DNA of 38,251 nt from Pseudobdellovibrionaceae bacterium (lineage in GTDB: Bacteria; Bdellovibrionota; Bdellovibrionia; Bdellovibrionales; Bdellovibrionaceae). The position numbers and the translations under genes were made by a program. Positions 137-28,132 of this stretch are shown in pieces (the stretch's first letter is position 1; each line of letters opens with the position of its first letter). The stretch is taken from assembly GCA_044359815.1 (NCBI GenBank), contig JBIKLL010000020.1, positions 1 to 38,251 on the forward strand, in the 5' to 3' direction. The notes below the pieces were generated by a model, which saw nothing but the letters and a program-made list of their open reading frames with translations, did no database searches and was not told the DNA's origin.

Positions 137-1318
137 CTATTTTGTTCCGGGCGGTTTTGATTCGGGAGTGGCTGCGGTGGATGCAGCTGGCGTCGCAGAG
201 GATGGCGCTTCGACCGCAGGGCTGGTTGACTGACTGTCATCCAACATTGCGCTGCCTGCCACTAACAACCCTCCGATGGCAGCAGCTTGAATGGCCGCTG
301 AAACCACAACCCTGGCCCCACGTTTAATCATAAACTGACCAAAATTATCAAACTTCAGACGTTTCAGGTAGGCCTTCATTTCCTGAGCTGTATTCACATC
401 GTCTTTGACGGTCATAGATCTTTGTTTACCGTTAAGCATGGTTGAGTTTTCAAAATAGTCTTTAAAAAACGCCTGGTAACTTTCGCGTTCAGCGGCTGTT
501 ATTAAAATCTTAAACGGCATCACGGCTCCATCGATCTCCAGGGCCGCCAGTTCATTAAGATTTGTACCATAGGCTTTTTGAATCAAGGCCTCGGGACCAG
601 GTGTGATTTTTACCTTTTGTCCGTAGCTATCCAATAATTTGATTTCATCCAAAATAGCGTCCCTTTGGCCGTTTTGATTAATGGGCCGGTATTGCAACTG
701 CAATTTGAAATACTGCCCTGATCTGGTTTTAAAACCATAGGCCACCTGAACCTCAGTGCGATCCAAAATGTCCTTTTCAACAGCCGGACGGTTTAAGTTC
801 AATGTTCCTTTTATCAGCCAAAACACACTGCCCTCTGCAAACAAAGTTTTATCCACACTGACGATCATGGCCTCTGACTCTTCAGGAGCAGATTCATCTG
901 ATGGTTGTTTTTGCTTAGGTGCCTTATCGCTTTCGGCTTTTTGCTCAGCCTTATCGACCTGCTGATCAGCAGTTTTGTCAGCGCCTGATTTGACCGGCTC
1001 TGCTTGAGGTTTCTCAGATTCTGATTTGACGGATTCGGCCTGATTTTTTGCAACTTCTGGCTTGGGGACTTCAACTGCAGTCTCTGCCGCCTTTGATTTA
1101 TCAGACTCTTTGGCGGGTGAGTTTCCTTTGGGGTATTTTAAGGATCCAACAGTAAAGTTATCTTCATTTTTGGTTAATTTGATGGAACCTATGATTTCAA
1201 AAACTTTTGGCAAGGACCTTGAATTTTCAGAGGGAAAGACTCCCTCGCAAGAAGTTAAATCAGCCTGAACACATTGACCCCAAACAAACACGGCAAAGAT
1301 TATCAGTTTTGATTTCAT
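137..1318 (-). CDS. Secreted hypothetical protein with low-complexity K/E/Q/A linker and C-terminal hydrophobic segment
   Basis: ORF 137..1402. ATG 1318 (after AGGG) gives the signal peptide MKSKLIIFAVFVWGQCVQA, followed by DLTSCEGVF. Duplicated QAE-x-VKS units in the linker; hydrophobic VVVSAAIQAAAIGGLLVAG near the C-terminus. Confidence 0.75.
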   Translation of the reverse strand: MKSKLIIFAVFVWGQCVQADLTSCEGVFPSENSRSLPKVFEIIGSIKLTKNEDNFTVGSLKYPKGNSPAKESDKSKAAETAVEVPKPEVAKNQAESVKSESEKPQAEPVKSGADKTADQQVDKAEQKAESDKAPKQKQPSDESAPEESEAMIVSVDKTLFAEGSVFWLIKGTLNLNRPAVEKDILDRTEVQVAYGFKTRSGQYFKLQLQYRPINQNGQRDAILDEIKLLDSYGQKVKITPGPEALIQKAYGTNLNELAALEIDGAVMPFKILITAAERESYQAFFKDYFENSTMLNGKQRSMTVKDDVNTAQEMKAYLKRLKFDNFGQFMIKRGARVVVSAAIQAAAIGGLLVAGSAMLDDSQSTSPAVEAPSSATPAASTAATPESKPPGTK

Positions 1319-1706
1319 GTCCCTAAAATATTTCTTTTTGCCATTTTTTGACACCACAGAGTGAAATACGTGTAATGAATTCAGCTGGCCCACTCTGTAC
1401 ACGGTGATTCTTTGAAGTCTTTATCACCCTAATTTTCAAACCCCTGCTGACCTTAGAGTCTTGATTCTATCTGATCATCAACAAACAAAGGGTAGATTTT
1501 TGTCATTTTACTGTAGGAACAAAATCTGAATTTTGCCAATCTCAGATCATTTAATCTTAAATTTCCTAAAATAAAAAACACTAAAAAACCCACTGAATTT
1601 TAAGAGAAAGTAAGAAAACGCCACGCAGAATAAATATTTTAATTATTTGTTGCGCACATACAAAGGGCTAGCAATGATTATTCTTACAACAACAAGGAGG
1701 GAAAAA

Positions 1707-3341
1707 ATGAAATCATTCATTTTTAGTTTGTTGGCAGCATCGTCTATTTTAGCGATAGCCAGCAGTCAGGCAGAAGCAGCCAGATACATCGTGGGAATCA
1801 AGGAACAAAATATTTTTTCAAGAGTCGCCGATCAAGTCGACTTGAGCCAAATGAATTCCATTGGGCTATTTGGGAACCGTGAAATCCAAGTCAGCTCAGC
1901 AATGAGAAACTTGCAAATGCTGGTGGTTCAAACAGATTCATCAGAAGCAATCACTAAATTGGCAACTGATGCTCGAGTGGAATTTGTTGAAGCAGAAACA
2001 TTTATCCCTGCTCCAAAACCCATCGAAGGATTTACCAGAACTCAACCATGGGACCTTTCTGCAGAATATTTGGCAGAAGCCCCAATTAATTTTGCACCTT
2101 CACGACCTTGGGGCATCACCAGCGTAAAAGCCGCTGAAGCTTGGTCACAAGGAGCAAAAGGCCAAGGTATCAGAATTGCCGTATTGGACTCAGGGATCGA
2201 CAAAGATCACCCATCATTGTCATCAGCTATCGAATCAATGCGCGATCTAGTTGGTGATGGCAATTCACCTTATCCCGCTGCCGATCAAGTCGGTCACGGA
2301 ACTCACGTTGCAGGTACTATTGCTGGCAGAATTTCAGCATCAGGATTTTCAGGAGTAGCTCCTGAAGCAAAATTGCTGGTTGGCCGCGTTTGCGGAACAT
2401 CGTCTTGCTCTATGATCAGCGTGATTTCAGGTATCGACTGGGCAGTCAGCGCAAAAGCTCGAATCATCAGTATGTCTTTGGGAAGCCAAATGGCTTCTTC
2501 GGCTGAAAAAATGGCTGTGGAGCGTGCTGCCAGTGCTGGTGTTATGGTTATTGCAGCCAGCGGAAACAGTGCTGAAGATTATCCAGGAAGAGTCGGATAC
2601 CCAGCAGCGTTTCCTACAGTTATGGCTGTGGGCGCGACCGATTCCGCTAATGCACGAGCTAGCTTTTCGCAATACGGAACTGAACTTGATATTATGGGCC
2701 CAGGGGTTGACGTTCTGTCCTCAGTACCAATGGGATCAGGCAGGGTCAGCGTAGTTCAAGTTGACAGCAACGGCCAAAGCAATGAGCTGGAAAGCCGAGC
2801 ATTTAATGCCAGCAAAGAAGCAAATTCACCGATTAGCGGAAAATTTGCAAACTGCGGAATGGGAAAATCCACTGACAGTTGCAATGCCAGCGGAAAAATT
2901 GCTTTGATCAAAAGAGGCGAAATCACTTTTGGTGAAAAAGCTCAGTTTGCACTCAGAAATGGAGCTAGAGCTGTCGTTATTTACAACAACACTTCAGGTA
3001 TTGTTAATGGAACCTTAAGCCAAGACGGTACAGTGATTCCCATAGTAGCTGTGGGCATTTCTCAAGCTGATGGCGAAAATATTTTGGCAGGTCTTTCTCG
3101 TGGCCAAGATGTTTCAGGCACAGTCAGAACAGACAAAACTGATTATGCTTCTTTTTCAGGAACTTCGATGGCAACGCCTCACGTTTCAGGGGTAGCCGCC
3201 TTGGTTCTGTCCAAAAAACCAAGCCTTCGTCCTTCTGAAGTCAAAAGAGCTTTGGAAAGCACTGCTACTAAAATCGGTTCAGCAACCGAATATGCAAGTG
3301 GTTTAGTGAACGCTGAAAAAGCCGTTGAATCTGTAAAATAA
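1707..3341 (+). CDS. Secreted subtilisin-like S8 serine protease with propeptide and PA-domain insert
   Basis: Catalytic motifs IAVLDSG (Asp), GHGTHVAG (His), SGTSMATPHV (Ser) and oxyanion AASGN; PA insert GKIALIKRGEITF...AVVIYNN. AAGGAGG RBS before ATG 1707; signal peptide. Confidence 0.96.
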   Translation: MKSFIFSLLAASSILAIASSQAEAARYIVGIKEQNIFSRVADQVDLSQMNSIGLFGNREIQVSSAMRNLQMLVVQTDSSEAITKLATDARVEFVEAETFIPAPKPIEGFTRTQPWDLSAEYLAEAPINFAPSRPWGITSVKAAEAWSQGAKGQGIRIAVLDSGIDKDHPSLSSAIESMRDLVGDGNSPYPAADQVGHGTHVAGTIAGRISASGFSGVAPEAKLLVGRVCGTSSCSMISVISGIDWAVSAKARIISMSLGSQMASSAEKMAVERAASAGVMVIAASGNSAEDYPGRVGYPAAFPTVMAVGATDSANARASFSQYGTELDIMGPGVDVLSSVPMGSGRVSVVQVDSNGQSNELESRAFNASKEANSPISGKFANCGMGKSTDSCNASGKIALIKRGEITFGEKAQFALRNGARAVVIYNNTSGIVNGTLSQDGTVIPIVAVGISQADGENILAGLSRGQDVSGTVRTDKTDYASFSGTSMATPHVSGVAALVLSKKPSLRPSEVKRALESTATKIGSATEYASGLVNAEKAVESVK

Positions 3342-3361
3342 ATTTTAGGTAACTTGAATTT

Positions 3362-3393
3362 AAAACGCTCACACTATGTGGGCGTTTTTTTTT
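3362..3393 (+). terminator. Intrinsic terminator of the S8 protease gene, overlapping the last codons of the convergent gene
   Basis: AAAACGCTCACA-CTA-TGTGGGCGTTTT stem (one G-U pair) ending in a 9-nt T run, about 20 nt after the stop at 3341. Confidence 0.75.
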
Positions 3394-4303
3394 GGCTTTG
3401 ATAAAATTCGACAAACTGATCCCAACCCGTCGACAGGGAAAACTGGCTCAGTAAAAAATCAGTTTTATCGGAATTCAGTCGGCTTAGTGGTTCTGAATAT
3501 TCTGTTTGTTTCAGAATATTAACTTCACAGGCCAAACCTGTTCGCGCCCTGACTTCACCGGCTAATAGTTTTGTAAATTGACCTTGAGAGAGTGCAAACT
3601 GACTGGGTCTGAAATACTGCAAATCGGAACTTAAGAAATGTTCATAGGCTAATGCAAGGGTTTGCACGAAAATATTATCCCTAATGTAATCTGGAAACTT
3701 CACATCAGCTGGTTTATTTTGCATCCATTGATCCATCAGATACCAAGTGTATTTTTTGTCCTCAAAAGGGCCAAAAGGATTGGGGATCAGAAATTTTTTA
3801 AATTTTAAATTTTGGCTGTGGCAATAGGATTTTATTTTTTCGCCTATCAGTGCTTTTGCTGTGCCATAGGGCGAAACAGCCACAGTGGGTTTGCCAAAAT
3901 CGCCTTCATTGGGCTCAAACACCGTCCCTGTATACAAAATCTGGGTTTTAGAATTTTTTAAGATTTCAAAAACTTTGTTAGCGTTGGCTAAATTAACCTG
4001 AACGCAATTTTGCACATCAAAATCTGGGCTTTTGTAATTGGGTATATGAGCCCCGTGCAGACAAATCACATCAAATTTATTTTCAGAAATTAATTTGCAA
4101 AATCCATCAGATCCAAAAGCGGCCTTAAAAACCGAATTGCAATTTGATCGAAGCTTCTGTGTCCTTAGGAATGATTTATCTGTCTGATAATCATCAAATC
4201 CCGATCTGGTAAATGTGCTGGTGACCGAGTGGCCTTTTTGGCAAAGAGTTTGATGGATCCAATAGCCTGAAAGCGAAGTAGCGCCGGTCAAAAGAATTTT
4301 CAT
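3374..4303 (-). CDS. NAD-dependent epimerase/dehydratase (extended SDR)
   Basis: N-terminal ILLTGATSLSG Rossmann motif, YGTAK (YxxxK) and PNPFGP. Confidence 0.88.
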   Translation of the reverse strand: MKILLTGATSLSGYWIHQTLCQKGHSVTSTFTRSGFDDYQTDKSFLRTQKLRSNCNSVFKAAFGSDGFCKLISENKFDVICLHGAHIPNYKSPDFDVQNCVQVNLANANKVFEILKNSKTQILYTGTVFEPNEGDFGKPTVAVSPYGTAKALIGEKIKSYCHSQNLKFKKFLIPNPFGPFEDKKYTWYLMDQWMQNKPADVKFPDYIRDNIFVQTLALAYEHFLSSDLQYFRPSQFALSQGQFTKLLAGEVRARTGLACEVNILKQTEYSEPLSRLNSDKTDFLLSQFSLSTGWDQFVEFYQSQKKTPT

Positions 4304-4336
4304 GACCAGACTATAAAAACCTTCAGGCCGGTTTGA

Positions 4337-6379
4337 CTACATACAACGCGGCATAGCTGAAACCAAGGCTTTGCACTGCTGGGAATCCAACTTTCTGTCT
4401 GCTGCAATCATAATCAGTCTTAGCAAAGCTGATGAATGCACGTCTTTATCAGCGGGCTTCAGTTTGTTATTGGAAAACCCTAATTCCTTATCGTAGTTAA
4501 GCAGAAAACATCCCATATTTTTTCCGTAATATGTTTTATCAGGTGAATTCTGCAGGACCTTTTCAAGAGTACGGCTAGAAAAATTATCAGCCCAGTCTTC
4601 TTCCAGATAAACATTTTTTGCATTTGGCTTTGGAGATTTAAATTTGTTTCTGTCATTAACACAGCCAATGGATTTAACCTGATTGGAAAGATTGTTTTTT
4701 GCTATAAAATTATAAATCAGATGCCCAACCTCATGGCTCAATACACCCAAACCGATCTCGGGTTTTTCAGCTGAATATCTGCTGGCAACAATCACGTTGT
4801 TGAAACGGTTTGAATTGTCAGATTGGCCAACGGTGAAGTAAGCTTGCACTCTTTTGTAGACTTCTGAATTTTCTACGATCTGCTTAAAACTGATAACATT
4901 GCTATCTACCGCCTCAGCTGATTGCCTGGTTGCTTTTTTCAAGACATCATCAAAAGCCGCTTTAATAAATCCGTCCATATAAACACTCACAGCCGTTTGT
5001 TTTTTTGCTTTATCACTAAATACTGTCAGTTTCTCAAATTCCATAGTCCGCTTTTGATCAACTGCCCGCAGATGTAATTCCAAAGCATCTTTTTTGTCTG
5101 CCAGATTTTCAATAATCACCTGAGTGGAGTCTATAATTTGATCAATCGACTTATGATGATTGGCTGAAAGCTGTTCTTTGGCAGATATTCTTGAATAATG
5201 TTTTACTGAGTCTACAACTTTATTAAATTTGTCCACGACCTCAGTCGATAGCTGTGGACTGTTTAAATAAACAATTGTGGGGACCATATGCAGGGCAACA
5301 CTGGTGACATTGTCTTCTGTGATTATACTTAAAACCTTAAGTCTTTGCTCAATAGCTTTTCGAACTACGGAAAAATCCAGATCAGGGATATTGCTGGTTA
5401 AAATATCCTCGGGCACATCCAGCAAAATCAAAACTGACGATATTTCCTGATCCCTAAGCTGTTCAAAAACAAATATCTTTTCTCCATTATTTAGTTCTGT
5501 CAGATTATTAATTTTTGCTTCTATGTCTTTGAAAATTGCAGTTTGCTCGGTCTCGATAAATTTTAATGCAGCACTGGCATCAATTGCTTTTTGAATTTCA
5601 GAATCAATCTGATTGACGTGTTTTTTAAGGCCCTGTTCAAAGGAAAGACCTGAATAGTTTTTTTGAATAAACTCTTCAATCGTCGTATAGGTTCTTAGGC
5701 TGTATTTTATTGATAAATCTATGACCTTTTGAACGTAAGGCCTTTCAGACTGCGAAAACTTTGATAAAACAGCTTCTTGATCCTTCTGAGAAAACTCAAA
5801 AACCGTAGTTCCTGTCGCAGAAATCTCAAGCATGGCTCTCAAAACAAAAATCATTTTGGCTGTCAGGACTTTCAGGTCCTTGATTTCTGTTTCATTCAAT
5901 TGGATTCCTGAATCAAGTATTTCAAGTTTTCTGTCAAGATGACGCCTTTCGAGATCTAGGTCTTTTTTGTACTCATCTTTTAGTCCTTGTAGCATCAAAG
6001 TTTCAGAGCCAGGGATAAACATTTTGCTTTTTATTTTTTCAGTGATTCGACTGAATCTTTCCGTAAAATCATAGGAAATATTTGTAAACTGACCAGTCTG
6101 TCCACACTGGGAACTGACACACTGACTGATGATTCCTTCTTGCAAAATAGATTCTTTAGACAGATCTGGATCGTCGGCGTGAGGATCTGCTGCCAGTTTG
6201 CCATCCAAAGATACCTTCAGCTTATCGCCGCCAGGTAAATTAATTTCCTGGGATTTATCAGGGGAGGAATCGGTCCTTTTATCAGGGACATCAATAATGT
6301 GAATTTCTTCACGGTCCCTTTGGCAAGCGACCAGGGTGCACACACTTAATATGATAAAACCATAAACGATTGTCTTCAT
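4337..6379 (-). CDS. Lipoprotein with C-terminal zinc metallopeptidase (gluzincin, M13-like) motifs
   Basis: GAGG RBS before ATG 6379; lipobox LVA-C; HEVGH, EEDWAD and DVHSSALLR motifs near the C-terminus. Confidence 0.7.
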   Translation of the reverse strand: MKTIVYGFIILSVCTLVACQRDREEIHIIDVPDKRTDSSPDKSQEINLPGGDKLKVSLDGKLAADPHADDPDLSKESILQEGIISQCVSSQCGQTGQFTNISYDFTERFSRITEKIKSKMFIPGSETLMLQGLKDEYKKDLDLERRHLDRKLEILDSGIQLNETEIKDLKVLTAKMIFVLRAMLEISATGTTVFEFSQKDQEAVLSKFSQSERPYVQKVIDLSIKYSLRTYTTIEEFIQKNYSGLSFEQGLKKHVNQIDSEIQKAIDASAALKFIETEQTAIFKDIEAKINNLTELNNGEKIFVFEQLRDQEISSVLILLDVPEDILTSNIPDLDFSVVRKAIEQRLKVLSIITEDNVTSVALHMVPTIVYLNSPQLSTEVVDKFNKVVDSVKHYSRISAKEQLSANHHKSIDQIIDSTQVIIENLADKKDALELHLRAVDQKRTMEFEKLTVFSDKAKKQTAVSVYMDGFIKAAFDDVLKKATRQSAEAVDSNVISFKQIVENSEVYKRVQAYFTVGQSDNSNRFNNVIVASRYSAEKPEIGLGVLSHEVGHLIYNFIAKNNLSNQVKSIGCVNDRNKFKSPKPNAKNVYLEEDWADNFSSRTLEKVLQNSPDKTYYGKNMGCFLLNYDKELGFSNNKLKPADKDVHSSALLRLIMIAADRKLDSQQCKALVSAMPRCM

Positions 6380-6511
6380 CTCAAATTCCTCTTCAGTTAT
6401 ATGAGTTTTTGGTGCAAGAGGCATTCGCACTGAAAACCAAATTAAACACTTTAGAACTTATGATTTTTTGAAAGTGACCAAAACGGCTAACATCAGTCAA
6501 AACCGTGAAAC

Positions 6512-6528
6512 TGTCTCGTTTTGAAACA
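6512..6528. promoter_or_regulatory. Palindromic operator-like site, TGTCTCA-N3-TGAGACA family, copy 1
   Basis: TGTCTCG-TTT-TGAAACA in the divergent intergenic region 6380-6606. Confidence 0.5.
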
Positions 6529-6606
6529 CTTTGATAAAAATTCGTATAAAAGTTCTGCAACCTGCTATGATTAAACCTTAAGGGAATGGCCGTTCGGGGT
6601 ACGTTT

Positions 6607-7569
6607 ATGGATGCGGCAAACACATTAAATCAATATATCGCTATAGATAAGCATGAGCTCATTGATGCCTTAGATCTGCCAGTTGATGTTTACGTCAGGC
6701 TGGGTGGTGACCGTTACATCTGCATCTGTAAACGAGGAAGTAAGTTTACCCTTGAATCGCTGCACGCCACACAAGACTCCTCGCTTAAACTGTTATATGT
6801 GACTGAAAATGACTATCCTAGTTTATTAAAATTCAATTTGAATATCTCAAGACATTTGTCAAAACTGCCATCCATCAGGCCTGATCAGAGCTTAAAAATA
6901 CACTCATCAACCTTTAGCAGCTTGCTGCGATCAATGAGTGAGTTCGGCATTGATGAAACATCCTTTGTGGGATCCAAAGACATTGCAAAATCAGTTTTAA
7001 ATTCAGTGCAAAAAAGGCCTGACCTACACCAGCTGATCACAAAAATTGAAGCATTGGGTCCGTTGATAGTTCAAAAAACTATGCTGACCACAATACTGTC
7101 TGCCAATGTGGCTATGATCATGGGTATGAGCCGCGAGCGAACCGAACTTTTGGTGCTTTCGGCACTGCTACACGATTTGGGATTAAAAGAAATCCCCAGC
7201 TACATTTTGGATAAAGCTCGCATAGATCTGACGGCTGAAGAGCGATCAACCTTTGAAACCCATCCATTCAGAGGAGCCGAACTGATCAGATCCTATGTAC
7301 AGAAAGCTCCTGAAGAATTAATTCAAGTCGTCCTACAACATCACGAGCTGGGTAACGGTTTGGGCTTTCCACAAAAACTAGATCATTTAAAAATTCATCC
7401 CTTTAGTCGCATTGTGGCTGCGTCTGATTGGATTGCCGACTCATTGATTGGGTTTTCCACTCAAGGCAAAAAAATGAGCTATGCCCAGGTCATCACGGCG
7501 CTGGAGACCCTCAACATCCCGATCAACCGACAGGTTTATACGATTTTAAAAACCTTATCGAAAAAATAA
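6607..7569 (+). CDS. HD-GYP domain protein, partly degenerate
   Basis: LLHDLG, FETHPFRG and QHHELGNGLGFP (GYP replaced by GFP). GGGG RBS before ATG 6607; extended -10 TGCTATGAT at 6563-6571. Confidence 0.88.
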   Translation: MDAANTLNQYIAIDKHELIDALDLPVDVYVRLGGDRYICICKRGSKFTLESLHATQDSSLKLLYVTENDYPSLLKFNLNISRHLSKLPSIRPDQSLKIHSSTFSSLLRSMSEFGIDETSFVGSKDIAKSVLNSVQKRPDLHQLITKIEALGPLIVQKTMLTTILSANVAMIMGMSRERTELLVLSALLHDLGLKEIPSYILDKARIDLTAEERSTFETHPFRGAELIRSYVQKAPEELIQVVLQHHELGNGLGFPQKLDHLKIHPFSRIVAASDWIADSLIGFSTQGKKMSYAQVITALETLNIPINRQVYTILKTLSKK

Positions 7570-7619
7570 ACATCTGGTATTTTTAAATACAGAGATAATT
7601 TGTTTTGCCGATAAGGTTT

Positions 7620-8924: not shown

Positions 8925-8953
8925 TAATTATCAATCAACTTAGTGCTTTGTGC

Positions 8954-9604: not shown

Positions 9605-9694
9605 ATCCCCATCCTATAAAGGAATTTGGTTTAAAAACACCGGATTAACAATTTAGCGAATGGTCATGACAGATCACGACCACTCATTAGAGTT

Positions 9695-10384: not shown

Positions 10385-10404
10385 ATCAGATCCCCTTAAC
10401 CTAC

Positions 10405-10431: not shown

Positions 10432-10433
10432 AG

Positions 10434-15785: not shown

Positions 15786-15806
15786 TTTAATCCTCTTTGT
15801 AAATTT

Positions 15807-18240: not shown

Positions 18241-18244
18241 AAGG

Positions 18245-19651: not shown

Positions 19652-19653
19652 GA

Positions 19654-20049
19654 CTAAGACCTGTCCTTTCCCCCTTTGCCACCCTTACCACCTTTGCCGC
19701 CTTTACCTCGACCACCCTTGTGGTTTTTCTTGTCGGCTTGTTCAAATGTGGTTGCAGTGGTTTGCACAAACTCAGGTAAAAAATGAATGTTTTCTACCGT
19801 CACAGCTTTTGCTGGGGGAGCTTCGCCTTCATTCAACCCGATAACTAGAATTCGCTTTAACTGTGTGGCATTTTGTGCCGCCACATCTAAGGCTTTCATA
19901 AAATAATTAAGTTTTTCACCTTCGAATTTAAAATCAGTTCCGATGGCCGTTTGGATTTCCTCTGCGGATTTTCCTTCGGCTGCCAAAGCTTCTTTTGATT
20001 TAAGACCCTTTGATAAAGTAAAACTGGCAAATTCTGTAATGGACTTCAT
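19654..20049 (-). CDS. Hypothetical protein with basic Gly/Lys tail; first gene of the URC operon
   Basis: AGGGGG RBS; C-terminus KGGRGKGGKGGKGGKGGKDRS; stop 2 nt before the mmsA start. Confidence 0.8.
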   Translation of the reverse strand: MKSITEFASFTLSKGLKSKEALAAEGKSAEEIQTAIGTDFKFEGEKLNYFMKALDVAAQNATQLKRILVIGLNEGEAPPAKAVTVENIHFLPEFVQTTATTFEQADKKNHKGGRGKGGKGGKGGKGGKDRS

Positions 20050-20076
20050 TTTTCCCCCTGATGGTTTAAAGAGCCC

Positions 20077-20105
20077 ATCATCATCAAAATCACCAAATGG
20101 GTCAA
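20077..20105 (-). promoter_or_regulatory. Sigma70-type promoter of the URC operon
   Basis: TTGACC-N17-GATGAT, ending 27 nt upstream of ATG 20049. Confidence 0.55.
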
Positions 20106-20156
20106 TACCTGCGTTGCCTAAATTTAATTTTTAGCAGCGTATTGGTTCGAAGTTAT

Positions 20157-20988
20157 TTAGCTGGCTTTAGATTGCACAGCTGGCGAATCGGCAGGCGCAA
20201 AGCTTTGACTCGAAGCTCTAGCAAAGGCTTGTTGGTATTTCGAAGGCAACATCCCTTGAACAAAAGACCCTTCTAAAACACCAGGAAACAACTCTTCATA
20301 GGACTTAACTTTTTCCAGCGAAACCCTTCTAAATACAGAACTTCTGCTGACCATATGGGCATTATCAAACCCACAGGCGCCTAATAATTCTGCAAAGGCG
20401 TGGACTGTTTGCTTGTGAAAACTTGCGACCCTGTGCTTTTTATCCGTCGGATCAAGCCCCACCATCAATTGGGCATCACTGGTAGCCACACCCGTCGGGC
20501 AGTGATTGGTGTTGCATTTTCTGGCCTGGATACACACTGGCCGAATAAGGTTTTTTGCAATCAGGCCCACCGATTTTGACTCTTAATGATTCAGGATTCA
20601 CATGTTTCGGTGATAATGAATGCCCAATTCATTCGTAGCCTTCGGCATAGACATTCTTTTGAGTTCCAAATGGCAATGTATCGATTTGTTTTTTGGCTCG
20701 TTGATACACGACTGATCTGAGCTCTCGCGAAATGGGTGTGCCATTAACGTCGTCTTCAACAAAATATTGCTGGATTTCGGGACGCACACCTTCAAAGGCA
20801 TAGCGAACCATTCCTAGGATTGGAAAGTTTCGCAGTATGGCTCGCTTTTTTTAAAAAGCATTGTGCATTCCCACCAGCACAATGGGGCCTGTCAAAATGA
20901 AGGCAAATAAAGTATTTGGATAAAAAAATCCAAGCACCGCCTGAAAACTGATCACTACAAATGAAATTTTAAAAAATAAGCTTCTCAA
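20157..20988 (-). pseudogene. FMN-binding glutamate synthase family (YerD-like) pseudogene
   Basis: One frame from TTG 20988 reads ...MHNAF*KKRAILRNFPILG...RPEIQQYF...YQRAK...PFGT...EGYE*IGHS...IGGPDCKKPYSAS, with stops at 20851-3 and 20629-31. At ~20535 it jumps in another frame to CIQARKCNTNHCPTGVAT; the central FMN barrel is missing. Confidence 0.92.
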
Positions 20989-21271
20989 AGTTTTTGGTCC
21001 TCGAGAATTCTTTTCGGTAATTTGTGGTGGAATCCTTAGCTGGACTTTGTGCTGAGCCAGACAGAATCCGTTTAACACAATTCTCAGACAGGACTGATCA
21101 AGAAATTTGTCAGCTAAATGTGCAAAGCTCAGATTTTTTTGAGTCAGTGGGTCATAGGCAGAATTTCTGCATCTGATCAGCTTTACTTATTTGTGTCGGT
21201 GATTCTTTCACCCTTTTGGATTTGTTTTTGCCCTTTGGAGCCAAGTTTGATTAATGAATCTCACACACAAA

Positions 21272-21295
21272 AATAATTATAAAAATATAATTATT
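21272..21295. repeat. AT-only perfect 10-bp inverted repeat; possible operator
   Basis: AATAATTATA-AAAA-TATAATTATT in the divergent intergenic region. Confidence 0.45.
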
Positions 21296-21372
21296 AAGAT
21301 TGAAAATATCTGCAGAGATCTAAGGTCGATAAAATGTCGACAGTGTTTGTCGATTTGAACAAAGGGGAATTT

Positions 21373-22011
21373 ATGAATTTAATTAAGTCAGCATTAATGA
21401 CTTTTTCAGTTTGTTTTGCACTGAATGGCTATGCCCAGATAGTGTATTTACCTCCAGCGGGTCATGTTTCCGGAGTGATCGTACAGGCTGTCGTAAAATA
21501 CCGCATGGTATTTACAAATTTTGACTTAAAAACTTCAACCGGAACTTTAACTAAAGCTGAACAACTGACCCTAGGCGCACCCAAAGCTTATATTTTAAAT
21601 GTCGGTCCTGGACTGTACACAACGAAACCTTCAGAGGACGATCGCGACCAGCAGACATATGTATTGTTTGGAGCTAAAACCTTAAGTCCTAAAAAAGAAT
21701 TTCTGACTTTAAACAAAGAACAACTGCTGAGTCAGGCACTAGAACTTAACAAAGAATTTCAAGATCGTTTTTTTGAAGTGGCTCTATTAAACCAGACTGA
21801 GTTTTCTAAAAATCTGTCTCTTGAAGCCCTGGCAACCATCAGACATCTGCCGATTGTAAAAGCCGAATCAATGGCTTGCACCCCAATTTCTGACCGCGCC
21901 GAATGCGAAGTGATTTTTAGATTTAGCGATGTGATCGAAATTTTGGATCCCATCAAAAAAACCTATCCCACAATCTTGCTTCAGAAACAGCAAAACGCCG
22001 AGCAGACCTAG
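21373..22011 (+). CDS. Secreted hypothetical protein
   Basis: AGGGG RBS before ATG 21373; signal peptide ending NGYA; one Cys pair near the C-terminus. Confidence 0.75.
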   Translation: MNLIKSALMTFSVCFALNGYAQIVYLPPAGHVSGVIVQAVVKYRMVFTNFDLKTSTGTLTKAEQLTLGAPKAYILNVGPGLYTTKPSEDDRDQQTYVLFGAKTLSPKKEFLTLNKEQLLSQALELNKEFQDRFFEVALLNQTEFSKNLSLEALATIRHLPIVKAESMACTPISDRAECEVIFRFSDVIEILDPIKKTYPTILLQKQQNAEQT

Positions 22012-22031
22012 GCATAGCAGAAGCTGACTTT

Positions 22032-23084
22032 TTATTTTCCTTCAAGGAGGGCTTTAAGTCTTTTGTCGCGGCCACATCCGTTGCGGTAGTATTTGTATCT
22101 GATGGGATTTTTTGAATGGTAGTCTTGATGGTATTCTTCGGCAGTATAAAACTCAGCCGTTGGCAATACGCTGACAGAAAACGTTCCCTTAGCTTTGAAT
22201 TTTGCCAAGGCCCGCTCCTTTGCCTGATTAAATATTTTTACATCATCTGCAGCTTCAATAAAAACCGCAGCTGTGTAGTGCGTCCCTTTGTCACAAAACT
22301 GCCCAGCGCCATCAAAAGGATCCACATTTAAAAAATAAACGTCAAAAATTTCTGAAAGCCCCACAATCTTTGGATCGTAAGTCACTTGAACAACCTCTCG
22401 GTGCCCCGTATTGCCAGCAGAAACTTCCTCATACGTTGGATTTTTTTTAACCCCACCAGCATATCCAGACACCACATCAATAACGCCTTTTAGTTTCTCA
22501 AAAGGGGGCTCCATACACCAAAAACACCCACCCGCTAATATAATGGATTTATTTTTTGAGGTCTCGGTAAAAAGCTTTTCGAATTCTTCATAACCCGCGG
22601 CTTTTAAATCTTTCTTGGCAATAAACTTCATCGAGGCTGAATTCATACAGTACCGCAACCCTGTTGGTTTAGGTCCATCATCAAACACATGGCCCAAATG
22701 CGAATCAGCAACCTTGGATCTGATCTCTGTGCGAACGCTAAAAAATTTTCTGTCTTTTTTCTCAACCAAGATCACACCCTCAATCGGTCGGGTAAAGCTG
22801 GGCCAACCAGTGCCTGAATCATATTTATCCTTTGAACTGAACAGTGGCTCGCCACTGACGATATCAACGTAAATGCCTTCTTCGTGATTATTCCAGTACT
22901 CATTTTTAAACGGAGGTTCAGTGCCTTCGTTCTGAGTCACCTCATACTGCATTGTCGACAGTTGTTTTTTTAGCTCTTCTTTACTGGGGATAGTTTTTGC
23001 TTTCCAAGCCATGGCCAGTTCTCCTGAAATCATTATTGTGAAAATTAAAGTGAAAGATAAAAACAAAAATCCAATAGCTTTCAT
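22032..23084 (-). CDS. msrAB: Exported methionine sulfoxide reductase MsrB-MsrA fusion
   Basis: MsrB motifs [20 protein letters not shown] and RYCMNS, followed by MsrA motifs AGGCFWC, GHREVV and AEEYHQDY. N-terminal hydrophobic signal; start 23084 or 23093. Confidence 0.95.
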
Positions 23085-23123
23085 GATAAGCACCTTTGGT
23101 TTGAGTTACCTATTTGAATTGGT

Positions 23124-24311
23124 TTATTTTAAAAGATCAAGATATGTTTCAAAAATGTTTTTTCGTATTATAGTCTCAAACTGAGCAGCATCCTGCGGAT
23201 TGGATGCACGGGCCTTCAGCTGATCTTCACACCTGATCCCACACAGAAAAATATTGTTTTCAATAGATTTTGTAGTGTTCCATCTGTGAAATTCATCTTT
23301 CTTGATTACATAATTGTAAACAGCTCCATACCCAGATAGCTCGTGCATAAAATGAAACATACGCTCTTTAATCAGCTCGATATGTTCTGGATGCAATTGC
23401 GCCATTTTGGCGAACAGAATTTCTTGAGCTTCTGTAATTTTTAATATCACCCCTGGATCCAGCTTTTGTGTCAACGCGTAATGATCAATAATATCATGGG
23501 CGGAAAACCTTATCGGCAGTTGACGAAACTCTTCATCAAAACCAATCCTGTCGGTGGGACTTAAACCAATGGGTCGTAATAGTGGCCAGGTCCCAGTGAA
23601 ATAGCCTTTACTTAACAGAGCAAATGTCGGTAAAAAAATATGCCCGTCCTGCAGTTGTCGTTTAAAGCCATCTTTGGCCAAAGCATAGTTCGTAAATGCC
23701 TGACTGACTTCGAAACTCGCTTGGTCCTCAGCAACCATATCATTTTTTAATTTTAAATCATCCAAAGACGTTCTGAGTGATCTTACCAAATCAACAGTTA
23801 ATAAAAAATCCACGACTTCTGCTATGTCGATAGAGTTTTCAATAATTTTCTCAGCTCTTTGGACTGCTGTATCACCAAAGCCAGGTAATGATTCCAACGT
23901 ACTTAAATGTTTTTCTAGATGAATTTCGTATTTTAATTGATGACCAAATGATTTTGTCAGAAAACTTTTTAGTATCTGCATATCCAAATCGAATTCAATT
24001 GTAGGAATCAATTTTTGCAATGCGAACTTTACTTGGGATTTGATATAGGGACTGTCTCCGTAGATACTCAGATGCGCATTGGGATCATTGGTGCGGCTTT
24101 TGTATTTTGCAATCAACAATTTTGATTCAGCCATTGCCGCTGATTCTTGGCGAATCATCAAAATGTCAACGGGATTCAATCTGAGGGACGCAGGCACAAT
24201 GACCTTTACCCGAAATGCACTTTCACAAGAATTCGCATTGGGCAGAATAATATTTTCTGCCGATGCGACTGATGCAAAAACTAAAAAAAGACTAATTAAA
24301 TACGGCTTCAC
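23124..24311 (-). CDS. Secreted hypothetical protein, possibly His/Asp metal-binding
   Basis: GTG 24311 gives a signal peptide ending ASA, then ...NSCESAF; AHDIIDH and FMHEL motifs. Start overlaps the end of the upstream C26 gene. Confidence 0.7.
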   Translation of the reverse strand: MKPYLISLFLVFASVASAENIILPNANSCESAFRVKVIVPASLRLNPVDILMIRQESAAMAESKLLIAKYKSRTNDPNAHLSIYGDSPYIKSQVKFALQKLIPTIEFDLDMQILKSFLTKSFGHQLKYEIHLEKHLSTLESLPGFGDTAVQRAEKIIENSIDIAEVVDFLLTVDLVRSLRTSLDDLKLKNDMVAEDQASFEVSQAFTNYALAKDGFKRQLQDGHIFLPTFALLSKGYFTGTWPLLRPIGLSPTDRIGFDEEFRQLPIRFSAHDIIDHYALTQKLDPGVILKITEAQEILFAKMAQLHPEHIELIKERMFHFMHELSGYGAVYNYVIKKDEFHRWNTTKSIENNIFLCGIRCEDQLKARASNPQDAAQFETIIRKNIFETYLDLLK

Positions 24312-25338
24312 AACTAAAAACTCGCCTGTTGGTTTTAGCCTTGGTGGCCAGTAAATTAAACATCTGAGTGGTTTCAATTGATGGTCTTAATTCTGGATGA
24401 AACTGCACCAACAACCCTCTGCCGTTTTTCATCTCCAGGGCTTCAACAACGCCATCGCTGCTGACGGCAGCGACTTCCAAAGGACCACCTGGTACAAACC
24501 TCACCGCCTGATGGTGATAACTGAAAACATCAAAAGGCAATTCAGAACCTAAAGCTCTGGCTAGTAGTTTATTTGTTGTTTGCATTTGATCGACAGAATG
24601 AACAGCAGTGCCGTGCTCCATTTTTGTACCTAGATCCAAAGTCACGTCTTGGTAGAGCTTATATCCCAAGGCCACAGAGGTGATTTGCAACCCCCTGCAC
24701 ACACCAAAAATAAAACCCTTTGATTTTTCATAGTAGTGTTTGATTAATTCGATTTCGTTCATGTCTCTGATTTTTATAAAATTTCTGGCATGAGTCTTTT
24801 GTTCGCGATAAAGCTCTGGGGCCACATCATCGCCACCCATAACCACAAGGGATGAAAACGTTTTGTTGATCTGTTGATAAAACTGCGTCCTGTATTTAAG
24901 CCCCAGTCTTTCAGCCGCAGCAATCGCAAGCAGATATTTGCTTTCAAAGGGAATTTGATTCATAAAATTTTGCACGCGATATGCTTTTTCTGTCTGGTCT
25001 TCGACCTTATTGGCAACAAACAACATGGCGGACTCTGTCGGGGCAGATTTCCAAATAACTCTGTCAATTTGCGAAAGCTCAGACACATGCATGGACAAAT
25101 CACCCTGTTGTCGCAAAGTCTCTACATAGGATCTTAGCGCTTGCTCTTTGGTTTCTGTGACCGTTTTGGGCAAAACCATCGTGGGGCCATCCGCGCTCAG
25201 TGAAAAGTAAATCAACTCAATGCCATTTTGGCTTTGATAGGCACCAGTGCCACTTTGCGCATTAACAGCGTCCACAGCTTTGACAGAAAAACTGGCTGAA
25301 ATCGCAATAAATAGCGAAAATAAAGAATGAGATATCAT
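24292..25338 (-). CDS. Peptidase C26 / gamma-glutamyl-gamma-aminobutyrate hydrolase-like (class I glutamine amidotransferase fold) with signal peptide
   Basis: MGGDDV, RD-x-x-E, GVCRGLQ nucleophile, SYHHQAV and VQFHPE triad. Signal peptide ending VKA; C-terminus SCEAVFN. Confidence 0.88.
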   Translation of the reverse strand: MISHSLFSLFIAISASFSVKAVDAVNAQSGTGAYQSQNGIELIYFSLSADGPTMVLPKTVTETKEQALRSYVETLRQQGDLSMHVSELSQIDRVIWKSAPTESAMLFVANKVEDQTEKAYRVQNFMNQIPFESKYLLAIAAAERLGLKYRTQFYQQINKTFSSLVVMGGDDVAPELYREQKTHARNFIKIRDMNEIELIKHYYEKSKGFIFGVCRGLQITSVALGYKLYQDVTLDLGTKMEHGTAVHSVDQMQTTNKLLARALGSELPFDVFSYHHQAVRFVPGGPLEVAAVSSDGVVEALEMKNGRGLLVQFHPELRPSIETTQMFNLLATKAKTNRRVFSCEAVFN

Positions 25339-25430
25339 GACTACTTACCTATTCACGAACGATGCCAATTCAGGCTTGATTCGCAATCAATCAAAAGCTA
25401 CCGTTTTTATATGGAAGACGGGAAAAACAG

Positions 25431-26180
25431 ATGACTGCAATATTATTAACTATTTTTTTTCAAACTCAACACCTCAGCGCAGCTGCTGGGTTGGATTGCC
25501 AAAACTCAAATGGAAATGGGAATATTTGCTTTTCTTTGCAAGTACCAAAATCATCACAGGACCGAAAATCACTCAAAGAAGACATTGGGGCTCAGGCAGA
25601 CGATGAATCTGTTTTTGCCTTTCGTTCAGTTCACAAAAGGTATTACAACAACCTAGGTGTCTTTAATTGCAATTCTCGAAGCCTTCAATATTCGGGATAT
25701 TTTGGAATTGACCGCGACTTTATGAATGAATCTAGGACGAAACCCAAGATTCCAGAGGGCCTAGGCGTGCCGGTTGGCTTCGGTCCCTATGTTCTGATTT
25801 TCGAAGGCGGAAACGGAGCCTGCGATTATATCGAATCTATTTTTAAAGGAAAATTAAGCCCGCAGTTTGACGATGGAGTGTTTTGGGAAAGTATGGATTT
25901 TCAAAAGAAATCAAAAGATTTTAAAGAAATTATGAAAGACTGCAACGACATCAGGATTCAAGCAAAAATTGTAAATGGGTACCCCAGTAAAATTGAAAAG
26001 CTGCAATGCTTTAAATCAATTGATGTGACTGAAAAAACCAAAAATGGTCGCATAGTCCAAGAAACAATTTATCAAGAACCAGGGTGGATTTTAGACTTAA
26101 ATACTTTAAAAAACTGGCGACAAGGTCCCGGAAACTCATCAAAACAAAACAAACCCACGCCGGGATTGAAAGATCAGTGA
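25431..26180 (+). CDS. Secreted Cys-containing hypothetical protein
   Basis: 249-aa ORF with a weak signal peptide and 6 Cys; overlaps the convergent gene by 7 nt. Confidence 0.65.
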   Translation: MTAILLTIFFQTQHLSAAAGLDCQNSNGNGNICFSLQVPKSSQDRKSLKEDIGAQADDESVFAFRSVHKRYYNNLGVFNCNSRSLQYSGYFGIDRDFMNESRTKPKIPEGLGVPVGFGPYVLIFEGGNGACDYIESIFKGKLSPQFDDGVFWESMDFQKKSKDFKEIMKDCNDIRIQAKIVNGYPSKIEKLQCFKSIDVTEKTKNGRIVQETIYQEPGWILDLNTLKNWRQGPGNSSKQNKPTPGLKDQ

Positions 26181-28132
26181 TTAATCACCTTAAAGACCTG
26201 GTCGCAACGACCCCCTGCTGACGCAGGAAATATCTGAAACTGTGATTGATATGTTGATCCTGTTACCGCATCAAAATACTGTCTTTGATAAATCCCAGGA
26301 CCTATATTGACCTCTGACAAAACCACCATAAAGGGTGGAGTCTCCTTAAAGGCTCGAAAATGTTGCTCTATGGATCTAGAAACAAACTCTCTTGCCTTAC
26401 TTAAGGAACTGACTTTCTTTTCCAATTGCTCAAATTTATTTCCAGAATTTTTAGAATTCGGCAACTCAATCAGTGGTTGCGATTTGAGCTTGTTTATTAA
26501 ATTCAATTTCATATAAGTAAACAGATGATTTTGTTTGATTCCAAATCTTTTTGCCTCAGTGATACTGGCCTCAATAAAGTTTAAATAAAACTCGACAAAC
26601 ATTTTTCGATAGGCAGTATTATTAAGTTTTCCCTTTATAGCGTTTTCGAACAAATCTTTTTTATCAGACAATTTTTCTTCAGGCGGAAGTTTTACCAGCT
26701 GATCCGCCAACAGCTGTAAGATCAAACTGATATTGGGGCCGGATTCCTTCATAAACCGAACGCTTCTGTACTCCTGATAAGCAAAATTATCATAGTACGA
26801 TAAAAGCTTAGTGGCCGATGCTAAATTTTCGAATTCTGGCCGCCTCTCTAGGTCTTTTACTATTTCCGGCGGCACACCCGTCAATCGAGCAAATTGAATT
26901 TTTAATTCATTTTCGAACACCTTATCAATTAGCTGATTCACCTCCGCACCAGAGGGAATTAAGTTTTTTTCTAAATCTGGAACCTGATCCTGCAGGCTAT
27001 TTATAAACTCCAGACTCAAATTTTTTACAGCAAAGTTGGTCCCGTTAATTTCCATTTCGCTGGCATCACCGTACTTCTGAAAATTGCTCAGCTTCAGAAA
27101 GTACCCAAAATCTAAACTTTTTCCAGAAATCTCGACGTTTGAAGGACTCAGCGTTGGTTGGTATAAATTATTGGCGTACATGTAGGCAGCTGTGATCGTA
27201 AACCTTTTGATCATTTCTAAAATCTGATTTTTAAGTTGATTTCTAATTTGAACGTCGCTGCTGACATCGCCCTGGACACCAACCTGAGGATAATATTCGG
27301 CAAGCGCCGTTGGCAATTTTGACATAGCGTAATTAACACGACGGCTTTCCCTTTTGGTTTTTTTCATTGTTAGGTTTTTCATAAAATGGGCTGGTCGCAA
27401 GGGATCTTCGCGAATCAGCAAAACCCGTTTTTCATTTTGCCCAATTTCATTATTAAAAATGGAGCCCACAATAATAATTGCCAGAACCCTATTGGCTCCA
27501 AAGGGCAGTTCATTGGCAGCAATTTGTGAAGCAACAGTCTCGTGCAAAGCTTCACCTAAACCCACCATCCCATCCGAATGAAATTTGTCCCTCAGCTTTC
27601 CCTGAGGAATCATTTTGGTAACTCCGATGCCTTTGATTTGAATTTTGCCTAAAGACCCCGTTCTGCCGCCACCTCTGTTGTAACTGATCCCGGCACCGCC
27701 ATAATAATCAGAATAAAAAACTTTAGTATGATCTTTTTTAAAATAATTTAGATCTGACAATTCTTCCTGAGGCTTGGCATAGGCCACCTGATCAACAAAA
27801 TCTTTTTCAAATTTTATGATATCATCCCCAGGGACTAAAAAACCTTGTTCGACAAACCAATCTAAGTCCAAAAAAAGTAGCTTAGGATTTTTGATCTTCA
27901 TCAAAACTTCAGCCTCATAGCCATCTGGACCTAAAATCTTTGCGTGAGCCGGAAGGTTTCCTTTTGTGCTTTCTTCAATTAGAAGCTCGGTCAGAGGCTT
28001 TGAACCCGCCTGCGCTGATACAGAAAGTCCGATCAGTGCTCGGAATAGGTCATTGCCTATCGCCAATGCAGGCTGAGCCCAGCATAGACTGATCAGACAA
28101 AATACGACTGTGATTGTAAAAGACTTTAACAC
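26174..28132 (-). CDS. Signal-peptide-bearing SelO/YdiU-like pseudokinase (putative AMPylase)
   Basis: YYGG...GGGR, QIKGIGVT, SDG, E-x-x-x-S, PFGANRVLAII, RPAHF and SPSN...GKSLDFG follow the SelO motif order. GGAG RBS; signal peptide ending ALA; C-terminal RCDQVF. Confidence 0.75.
   Translation of the reverse strand: MLKSFTITVVFCLISLCWAQPALAIGNDLFRALIGLSVSAQAGSKPLTELLIEESTKGNLPAHAKILGPDGYEAEVLMKIKNPKLLFLDLDWFVEQGFLVPGDDIIKFEKDFVDQVAYAKPQEELSDLNYFKKDHTKVFYSDYYGGAGISYNRGGGRTGSLGKIQIKGIGVTKMIPQGKLRDKFHSDGMVGLGEALHETVASQIAANELPFGANRVLAIIIVGSIFNNEIGQNEKRVLLIREDPLRPAHFMKNLTMKKTKRESRRVNYAMSKLPTALAEYYPQVGVQGDVSSDVQIRNQLKNQILEMIKRFTITAAYMYANNLYQPTLSPSNVEISGKSLDFGYFLKLSNFQKYGDASEMEINGTNFAVKNLSLEFINSLQDQVPDLEKNLIPSGAEVNQLIDKVFENELKIQFARLTGVPPEIVKDLERRPEFENLASATKLLSYYDNFAYQEYRSVRFMKESGPNISLILQLLADQLVKLPPEEKLSDKKDLFENAIKGKLNNTAYRKMFVEFYLNFIEASITEAKRFGIKQNHLFTYMKLNLINKLKSQPLIELPNSKNSGNKFEQLEKKVSSLSKAREFVSRSIEQHFRAFKETPPFMVVLSEVNIGPGIYQRQYFDAVTGSTYQSQFQIFPASAGGRCDQVFKVINH

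What the first reader, a model, noticed from the sequence alone, without database searches (positions are those of the whole stretch)
1235..26209. Shared terminal [S/R]-C-[E/D]-x-[V/A]-F tag on four unrelated secreted proteins: candidate sorting or effector signal
Seen: SCEGVF (1235-1252) and SCESAF (24213-24230) sit just after predicted signal-peptide cleavage sites. SCEAVF (24298-24315) and RCDQVF (26192-26209) sit at the extreme C-termini of the C26 hydrolase and the SelO-like protein. All four carry Sec-type signal peptides but are otherwise non-homologous, and the tag lies outside any catalytic domain. Inference: a portable Cys-Phe tag that works at either terminus and routes periplasmic cargo to a second export step, chaperone or disulfide/covalent tether, for example for delivery into prey. 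I know of no named function for it.
Basis: partly seen in the sequence, partly recalled or inferred. Interest (0 to 1): 0.8.

Follow-up and report, generated by a model that had tools for sequence, protein, structure and literature searches.

The report
Lone-cysteine export tag in predatory bacteria
About 44 mostly unrelated proteins of this Bdellovibrio relative, nearly all with predicted export signals, carry the same five-residue single-cysteine tag at one end or the other; the tag likely acts as a handle that couples enzymes normally active inside cells to a still unknown route into the prey's cytoplasm.

Summary
The four motifs are real (minus strand) and belong to a genome-wide tag, C-[EDQH]-x-[VISA]-[FL]. 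It is found just after the signal peptide in 25 ORFs (4.3 expected) or within 6 residues of the stop in 22 (2.1 expected); 44 remain after removing 3 chance hits. The tag cysteine is usually unpaired, and cargo bodies hold 4.6-fold less cysteine than other exported proteins. Orthologues keep the tag: 51 of 57 in the secreted C26 clade against 1 of 63 ordinary C26 enzymes. A signal-peptide-bearing ClpA-like clade has it (7 of 9); 22 cytoplasmic ClpAs do not. One family carries it at opposite ends in two genomes. Cargo includes ATP- and SAM-type enzymes (AAA+, SelO fold, methyltransferases), whereas secreted endonuclease I and DacB-like families lack it. It fails lipobox, CaaX and MYXO-CTERM tests, and ten literature searches found no description. 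Best reading (0.4): a docking helix plus disulfide tether for post-Sec delivery into prey cytoplasm. No receptor was found and expression support is weak. The scan noted the same tag before in another genome (e1-7045157).

The parts
1235..1252 (-). N-terminal tag SCEGVF, Cys at +5 of the predicted mature protein
   Evidence: the three homologues found in 150 genomes also have a Cys just after the signal peptide
137..1318 (-). 393-aa protein of no known family; predicted signal peptide 1262-1318; acidic, low-complexity stretch after the tag; one hydrophobic segment near the C-terminus
24213..24230 (-). N-terminal tag SCESAF, Cys at +11 of the predicted mature protein
   Evidence: kept as SCESVF in the only homologue found (84% identical)
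23124..24311 (-). 395-aa orphan protein; predicted signal peptide 24258-24311; its start overlaps the end of the C26 gene
24298..24315 (-). C-terminal tag SCEAVF, 1 residue before the stop
   Evidence: C343 invariant in 38 of 38 aligned homologues; modelled as a separate short helix 343-347, pLDDT 54
24292..25338 (-). 348-aa peptidase C26 / PuuD-like glutamine amidotransferase; predicted signal peptide 25276-25338; catalytic-type C214 and HPE motif invariant; probable orthologue of B. bacteriovorus Bd2265
26192..26209 (-). C-terminal tag RCDQVF, 5 residues before the stop
   Evidence: terminal CxxxF-like Cys in 12 of 17 closest homologues and 0 of 7 distant ones; modelled helix, pLDDT below 50
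26174..28132 (-). 652-aa SelO/YdiU-fold protein; predicted signal peptide 28061-28132; the tag Cys is the only Cys of the mature chain

Best explanation
The motif is a five-residue, single-cysteine tag at either end of about 44 predicted Sec-exported proteins, and it likely docks as a one-turn helix on a periplasmic carrier and forms a disulfide with it, which would route the cargo through a second export step into the prey's cytoplasm, where reduction would release it. Shown: terminal position, unpaired cysteine, cysteine-poor cargo, conservation, portability, use of either end, and cargo drawn from families that need ATP or SAM. Predicted: the short helix that puts Cys, +3 and +4 on one face. 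Inferred: (1) a dedicated reader exists; (2) the bond is a disulfide; (3) the destination is prey cytoplasm; (4) the conduit is a pilus/secretin-type or unknown machine. My odds: dedicated sorting or attachment signal about 0.9; prey-directed cargo about 0.7; disulfide chemistry about 0.55.
For: Enrichment: 25 N-terminal against 4.3 expected and 22 C-terminal against 2.1 (motif chosen after seeing the hits, cross-validated). A motif-free test finds the lone Cys of 104 single-Cys exported proteins at a terminus 55 times against 18.7 expected (some N-terminal ones are missed lipoproteins). Cys is 0.18% of tagged protein bodies, 0.83% of other signal-peptide proteins and 1.1% of cytoplasmic ones; an odd Cys count occurs in 36 of 42 against 273 of 786. 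Tag codons differ from gene to gene, so it is not a copied DNA element. Paired control: a ClpA-like clade has a signal peptide (8 of 9, one cut), a C-terminal tag (7 of 9) and 1-2 Cys, and 6 of 9 keep both Walker A motifs; 22 canonical ClpAs have no signal peptide and no tag, with a median of 5 Cys. Cargo with cytoplasm-type needs: AAA+ ATPase, class I methyltransferase, a three-paralogue family with a methyltransferase-like fold, SelO fold, C26 hydrolase, and in named B. bacteriovorus kdesi a beta-amylase with the tag and a J-domain protein with a looser terminal Cys. Untagged controls: 0 of 8 secreted endonuclease I proteins and 0 of 12 distinct S13 DacB-like proteins, which have even Cys counts. 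The probable C26 orthologue Bd2265 is on the HD100 predatosome sheet, which holds 6.6% of genes.
Against: No receptor was found: DsbA-like proteins all have ordinary CxxC sites, and tagged genes are scattered rather than clustered at the four secretin loci. Expression support is thin: Bd2265 is induced only 1.7- and 1.25-fold (t-test 0.14), is called silent in attack and 3-h growth phases, and was not found in the proteome tables; the probable J-domain orthologue Bd0677 is not induced on prey entry. Cysteine depletion is expected for any cytoplasmic enzyme moved through an oxidising periplasm and does not single out a disulfide tether. Some cargo (M28 and M48 peptidases, alpha/beta hydrolases, TraB family, EEP nuclease) could work in a periplasm. 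Tag density is uneven: 0 in 400 kb of G062 and about 2-3 in 400 kb of G041, against about 15 per Mb here. The terminus switch rests on one pair from different classes. The SelO-like clade has Ser where SelO has the Asp before Asn (its role as catalytic base is recalled), so its activity is uncertain. No shared promoter motif was found.
Confidence: 0.4

Rival explanations
1. The tag is a lipidation site: the helix lies on the membrane and its Cys receives a diacylglyceryl or acyl group, perhaps from a spare Lgt paralogue, anchoring cargo to the predator's membranes, to vesicles or to the prey membrane.
For: The genome has 3 Lgt-family genes and each of 4 relatives has 2. Cys-bearing sorting signals such as MYXO-CTERM are predicted to be lipidated (PMC11980579, abstract). 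The Cys lies on the hydrophobic face of the predicted helix.
Against: Only 1 of 25 N-terminal tags fits a lipobox, and homologues of that protein do not. C-terminal tags have no membrane helix. Lgt acts on signal-peptide-tethered substrates (established knowledge). Extra Lgt copies are also present in G062, where 400 kb showed no tag.
Confidence: 0.25
2. The tag is a mainly non-covalent export signal, read by a pilus-tip or type II secretion component as the TcpF and CofJ export signals are; the Cys is a small conserved contact residue or forms only a transient bond.
For: Like the TcpF/CofJ signal, it is a flexible terminal segment of a Sec-exported protein with a conserved aromatic residue (PMC10120004, passages). 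The genome has four secretins, in PilQ-type, type II secretion and Tad-like loci.
Against: Cys is more conserved than the aromatic residue: it is the only part kept in distant classes. Other cysteines are purged from the cargo. The tag works at either end, and cargo genes are not in pilus operons.
Confidence: 0.17
3. The tag stores or restrains cargo inside the predator: it tethers hazardous enzymes by a mixed disulfide to a periplasmic holder or to one another until prey contact, or places them at the feeding junction to work on leaked prey contents.
For: The probable orthologue Bd0677 is most abundant in free-swimming phases and dips during growth. In epibiotic feeding the prey inner membrane is proposed to be disrupted, which would expose cytoplasmic cofactors at the junction (PMC12428579, passages).
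Against: One protein only, its orthology inferred from gene order and its tag not seen in HD100 itself. Storage alone does not explain how ATP-dependent cargo gets its cofactors.
Confidence: 0.13
4. Chance or compositional artefact, or a structural cap of each protein.
For: The broad motif was defined after seeing hits, and the signal-peptide calls are heuristic.
Against: 9 of 9 strict hits are terminal, against 0.87 expected anywhere; cross-validation holds; independent conservation in at least five unrelated families and co-gain with the signal peptide; modelled apart from the domains.
Confidence: 0.03

Closest known systems
Type IVb pilus export signal of Vibrio cholerae TcpF and ETEC CofJ (PMC10120004, passages read; PMC9565799, search listing only)
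   Same: A short flexible terminal segment of a Sec-exported protein, with a key aromatic residue, portable between proteins; it directs a second export step.
   Different: It is N-terminal only, has no essential Cys, and serves one substrate encoded in the pilus operon. Here the tag has an invariant unpaired Cys, sits at either end, and marks about 44 scattered cargo.
[quoted passage not shown]
   Same: An invariant Cys in a short signature shared by dozens of unrelated exported proteins of one lineage.
   Different: Those are tripartite (signature, transmembrane helix, Arg-rich tail), C-terminal only and cleaved. This tag has no helix or basic tail after it and also occurs at the N-terminus.
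Bacterial lipoprotein lipobox (Lgt/LspA/Lnt) (established knowledge)
   Same: A single Cys close behind a signal peptide.
   Different: Here the Cys lies a few to about a dozen residues past an SPase I-type site; 1 of 25 fits the lipobox; half of the tags are C-terminal.
Disulfide-tethered A subunits of AB-type toxins, and thiol-mediated retention of terminal-Cys clients by ERp44 (both recalled, no call)
   Same: The proposed logic: a terminal Cys links cargo to a carrier in an oxidising compartment and reduction releases it.
   Different: No carrier is identified here, there is no sequence or structural link, and the cargo are dozens of unrelated enzymes.

Membership tests
Lipoprotein (lipobox) | [LVI][ASTVI][GAS]C at the end of the hydrophobic region | tested here: not met
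   1 of 25 N-terminal tags fits; its homologues do not
Lipoprotein (lipobox) | Cys is the first residue of the mature protein | tested here: not met
   Cys at +5 and +11 after predicted SPase I sites in the window proteins; 22 tags are C-terminal; cleavage sites are heuristic
MYXO-CTERM-type Cys sorting signals | Invariant Cys in a short signature | tested here: met
MYXO-CTERM-type Cys sorting signals | Transmembrane helix and Arg-rich tail after the signature | tested here: not met
   Cys is 5 to 10 residues from the C-terminus in 22 of 22; no NCBIfam CTERM model hit in 44 proteins scanned
MYXO-CTERM-type Cys sorting signals | Cognate CPBP-family protease | not tested
   not searched, because the substrate architecture is absent
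CaaX prenylation motif | Cys fourth from the C-terminus | tested here: not met
   0 of 22; positions 5 to 10 from the end
T4bP export signal (TcpF/CofJ) | Sec signal peptide followed by a flexible terminal segment with a key aromatic residue | tested here: met
   signal peptides by heuristic; F in 39 of 44; low pLDDT of the two modelled C-terminal tags
T4bP export signal (TcpF/CofJ) | N-terminal position and gene inside the pilus operon | tested here: not met
   22 C-terminal tags; genes scattered, none inside the four secretin operons
T4bP export signal (TcpF/CofJ) | Binding to the minor pilin trimer and pilus-dependent export | not testable with these tools
   needs mutants and pull-downs; no complex prediction was run because no partner could be singled out
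SelO/YdiU (cargo at 26174-28132) | SelO pseudokinase fold | tested here: met
   Foldseek 6e-11 to YdiU, TM 0.66 by target; profile 3e-11
SelO/YdiU (cargo at 26174-28132) | Active-site residues | tested here: inconclusive
   K167, E194/E198, N332 and D341 conserved; Ser331 in place of the Asp before Asn; residue roles recalled
Peptidase C26 / PuuD-like (cargo at 24292-25338) | Class I glutamine amidotransferase Cys-His-Glu triad | tested here: met
   PF07722 1.7e-30; C214, H314 and E316 invariant in 38 of 38

The most novel reading that the evidence does not exclude
Bdellovibrionota have an undescribed two-step effector secretion system. Sec-exported enzymes, many recruited from cytoplasmic families (AAA+ unfoldase, SelO fold, methyltransferases, J-domain, beta-amylase), are marked by a terminus-independent Cys-x-x-(V/I/A/S)-F helix, coupled by a disulfide to a carrier and delivered into prey cytoplasm. 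The tag would be the first sequence signal defining the predator's cytoplasmic effector set and a bait for finding the delivery machine.
Probability: 0.4. Interest if true: 0.93.

Novelty: categorically new. Interest (0 to 1): 0.8.

Why it matters
How Bdellovibrio-type predators move proteins beyond their own periplasm and into prey is open: a 2025 paper calls secretion in B. bacteriovorus largely unexplored (PMC12622784, passage), and the predatosome is dominated by 174 hypothetical genes (PMC2797640, passage). A five-residue tag makes this testable. A signal that works at either end through an unpaired cysteine fits none of the bacterial sorting signals tested here. If portable, it could also direct chosen enzymes in engineered predators.

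Tried and rejected
Family models for the tag: none in Pfam (52 proteins), NCBIfam (44) or PHROGs (28); Rfam found nothing in the window. A copied DNA element: rejected, codons differ. A shared promoter: sigma-28 and sigma-54 patterns not enriched (1 and 0 of 44), best k-mer p=2e-5 among many thousands tested, not convincing. A monothiol DsbA-like receptor: not found; all such proteins have CxxC. A receptor among exported proteins with one internal Cys: list inspected, no candidate stood out. Clustering of cargo at secretin or Lgt loci: not seen. Mutual exclusion of N- and C-terminal tags: 0 proteins have both, but under 1 is expected by independence, so this is no evidence. Terminus switching in the M28 family: none in 76 proteins; about 10 carry an N-terminal tag by eye, 11 by a pattern that includes false hits. 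The apparent switch in L221 is a Cys inside the signal peptide and was discarded. The metagenome scan for the switched family gave only 1 close relative, N-tagged. ESM Atlas gave no usable hit for the 23124-24311 protein. The single-sequence PDB search for the SelO-like protein gave only noise. Sequencing runs: no RNA holder listed. The Clp tree is a quick tree with long branches; it separates secreted from cytoplasmic rows but does not establish one origin. CASP15/16 papers were irrelevant. Only 400 kb of the named B. bacteriovorus genome could be examined, so enrichment of tagged genes in the predatosome was not tested. Three motif hits were dropped by eye as cytoplasmic chance matches (C37:11958, C25:19486, C125:6260).
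Full report
Observation. The four hexapeptides lie at the stated coordinates on the minus strand and are the only six-frame matches of the strict pattern in the window. Two follow predicted signal peptides of proteins that probably start at 1318 and 24311; two end the C26 hydrolase and the SelO-like protein. The window is contig C73 of a 2.95-Mb, 91% complete genome whose proteins match named Bdellovibrio and Bdellovibrionaceae records; holders of this DNA are lake-water metagenomes. Predation by this organism is inferred from kinship. Signal peptides were called with my own hydrophobicity heuristic and by eye.

More than chance. In 2839 ORFs the strict motif occurs 9 times, always at a terminus, against 0.87 expected anywhere. 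Selecting sites by CxxxF and position alone, a profile of the other positions trained on 25 N-terminal sites separates 27 C-terminal sites from 284 interior ones (p=3e-5), and the reverse also holds (p=6e-5). With the working motif C[EDQH]x[VIASTL][FL], 2306 complete ORFs of 150 aa or more give 25 N-terminal hits (4.3 expected) and 22 C-terminal hits (2.1 expected); the motif was chosen after seeing hits, so the cross-validation is the fair test. Three hits were dropped by eye as cytoplasmic chance matches, leaving 44. Of the 22 C-terminal hits, 17 have a signal peptide by the heuristic. A motif-free test agrees: of 104 exported non-lipoproteins with one mature Cys, 55 have it at a terminus against 18.7 expected, though some N-terminal cases are missed lipoproteins. 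Codons differ among tags, so selection acts on the peptide.

Anatomy. The consensus in this genome is x-C-[E/D]-x-[V/S/A/I]-F, with F in 39 of 44; S or R precedes the Cys in 19 of 44. In two AlphaFold models the tag is a short helix of low confidence, apart from a confidently folded domain, which would put Cys, +3 and +4 on one face. The Cys is usually unpaired: 36 of 42 tagged signal-peptide proteins have an odd Cys count against 273 of 786 others, and their bodies contain 0.18% Cys against 0.83%.

Conservation and portability. In the full-length secreted C26 clade, 54 of 57 proteins have a Cys in the last 12 residues and 51 match a loose motif, against 1 of 63 ordinary C26 enzymes; the tag Cys is invariant in 38 of 38 aligned. 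In the window's own family 23 of 23 C26 loci end with such a Cys; 6 of 7 loci from other classes keep a terminal Cys with looser spacing, and a named Oligoflexales homologue has none. The SelO-like clade has it in 12 of the 17 closest homologues and 0 of 7 distant ones. N-terminal families behave alike: 8 of 9 EEP nucleases and 10 of 10 members of a methyltransferase-fold family have a Cys just after the signal peptide (6 and 8 by strict pattern), as do the 3 homologues of the 137-1318 protein found in 150 genomes. In the M28 family only about 10 of 76 members carry it, so it is gained lineage by lineage. The cleanest control is Clp: 9 divergent ClpA-like proteins have a signal peptide (8; one is cut off), a C-terminal tag (7) and 1-2 cysteines, while 22 canonical ClpAs have no signal peptide and no tag. 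One homologous pair carries the tag at opposite ends (G000 C17:4450-5271, N-terminal; L331:4885-5766, C-terminal; E=2e-10), and a close relative of the first keeps it N-terminal. Density is uneven: about 15 per Mb here, roughly 2-4 per 400 kb in G041, G232, G172 and G173 (looser in the last two, none individually strong), and 0 in 400 kb of G062.

Cargo. Most tagged proteins have no family. Those that do include a two-domain AAA+ ATPase with both Walker A and B motifs, a class I methyltransferase, three methyltransferase-fold paralogues, the SelO-fold protein, the C26 hydrolase, ankyrin and HEAT repeat proteins, an APP1-type phosphatase, a TraB-family protein, M28 and M48 peptidases, alpha/beta hydrolases and an EEP nuclease. 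In named B. bacteriovorus kdesi a beta-amylase has the tag and a J-domain protein has a looser terminal Cys. ATP, SAM, DnaK and glycogen are cytoplasmic (established knowledge), so several cargo make sense only in a cytoplasm other than the producer's. By contrast 0 of 8 secreted endonuclease I and 0 of 12 distinct S13 proteins from five genomes are tagged; these families hold the HD100 nucleases Bd0934, Bd1244 and Bd3507 (PMC3593177, passages) and Bd3459. The tag therefore marks a subclass of exported proteins. Against over-reading: several cargo could act in a periplasm, and the SelO-like clade has Ser at the position of SelO's Asp before Asn.

Expression. By gene order and length the C26 orthologue in HD100 is probably Bd2265 (340 aa, a few genes before protease Bd2269). 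It is on the 240-gene predatosome sheet, but at 1.7- and 1.25-fold with t-test 0.14, is called silent in attack and 3-h growth phases, and was not found in the proteome supplements searched (one file unreadable, one cut). The probable J-domain orthologue Bd0677 is not induced on entry and is most abundant in free-swimming phases. I did not see HD100 sequences, so their tags are inferred. This is weak, mixed support.

Machinery. The genome has four secretins (PilQ-type, type II secretion and two Tad-like loci), three Lgt-family genes (two in each of four relatives) and three DsbA-like proteins with ordinary CxxC sites. Tagged genes are scattered and share no convincing promoter motif. No reader could be named, so no complex prediction was run.

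Mechanism. Use of either end rules out chemistries tied to a free terminus or to the signal peptide. An invariant unpaired Cys with purged competitors points to thiol chemistry on the tag. Soluble cargo bound for a reducing cytoplasm fits a reversible disulfide better than a permanent lipid. I therefore favour helix docking plus a mixed disulfide to a carrier, followed by a second export step and reductive release (0.4), over lipidation (0.25), non-covalent pilus-type export (0.17), storage or junction tethering (0.13) and artefact (0.03). Every step after the tag itself is inferred.

Known systems. It works most like the TcpF/CofJ export signal (PMC10120004, passages) but is not N-terminal only and is not operon-linked. 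It shares the invariant Cys of MYXO-CTERM-type signals (10.1101/2023.06.07.544157, passages; PMC11980579, abstract) but lacks their helix and basic tail. It is not a lipobox (1 of 25) or CaaX (0 of 22). Ten full-text searches, including Bdellovibrio with CxxxF/CxxIF/CxxVF/CxxLF and with Bd2265, found no description of the motif; subscription journals and bioRxiv supplements were not searchable, and a motif shown only in a figure would be missed. Other papers seen: PMC12622784, PMC12428579, PMC2797640, PMC12750041, PMC10792529 (passages); PMC12546842 (abstract, supplement searches); PMC3627812 (supplement 2, first part and searches); PMC7925074 and PMC9565799 (listings only). The scan itself noted the same tag in another Bdellovibrio relative (e1-7045157); that note is unchecked and came after my own tests.

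Verdict. A real, conserved, apparently unpublished sorting tag of Bdellovibrionota, with a likely role in delivering predatory effectors and an unidentified reader. Interest 0.8.

Noticed in passing
G000:C86:8707-11349 (L032) and L245-L251, L273: A fast-evolving clade of ClpA-like AAA+ ATPases with signal peptides and mostly intact Walker motifs across several families of the order: an exported unfoldase-like protein that I did not find described.
   Followed up: partly
G000:C106:2655-3452, C99:24298-25377, C109:23528-24268: Three Lgt-family genes in this genome and two in each of four relatives; the one beside lspA-like and ileS-like genes is the most divergent.
   Followed up: partly
L184:6710-7366 (G041): J-domain protein with a signal peptide and a lone Cys near the C-terminus; probable orthologue of Bd0677.
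   Followed up: partly
L189:15520-16998 (G041): Secreted beta-amylase (GH14) with a C-terminal tag beside fliW; GH14 is found in 23 of 251 genomes of the phylum searched.
   Followed up: partly
G000:C104:30299-31306, C96:18810-19712, C87:6580-7506: Three N-tagged paralogues with a class I SAM-methyltransferase-like fold, belonging to large unnamed clusters in the ESM Atlas.
   Followed up: partly
window:14531-19651: Minus-strand run of aldehyde dehydrogenase, GTP cyclohydrolase II-like, DUF1688, uracil phosphoribosyltransferase and uridine kinase; resembles the URC uracil-degradation set (name recalled).
   Followed up: no
window:10510-14382: 1290-aa predicted lipoprotein with Ig-like repeats (weak Big_13 hit) and a vWA/MIDAS-like motif split by a long helical insert (by eye).
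   Followed up: no
window:20157-20570: Only the C-terminal 137 aa of an FMN glutamate-synthase-family protein, apparently a gene fragment.
   Followed up: no
window:21334-22011: Exported protein with CEVIF 30 residues from the C-terminus; it has 3 Cys and was not counted as tagged.
   Followed up: no
G000:C85:18526-28508: Tad/Flp pilus locus followed by a 546-aa exported protein and a 116-aa exported protein that resemble the hit-locus pair Bd0109/Bd0108 (recalled, not tested).
   Followed up: no
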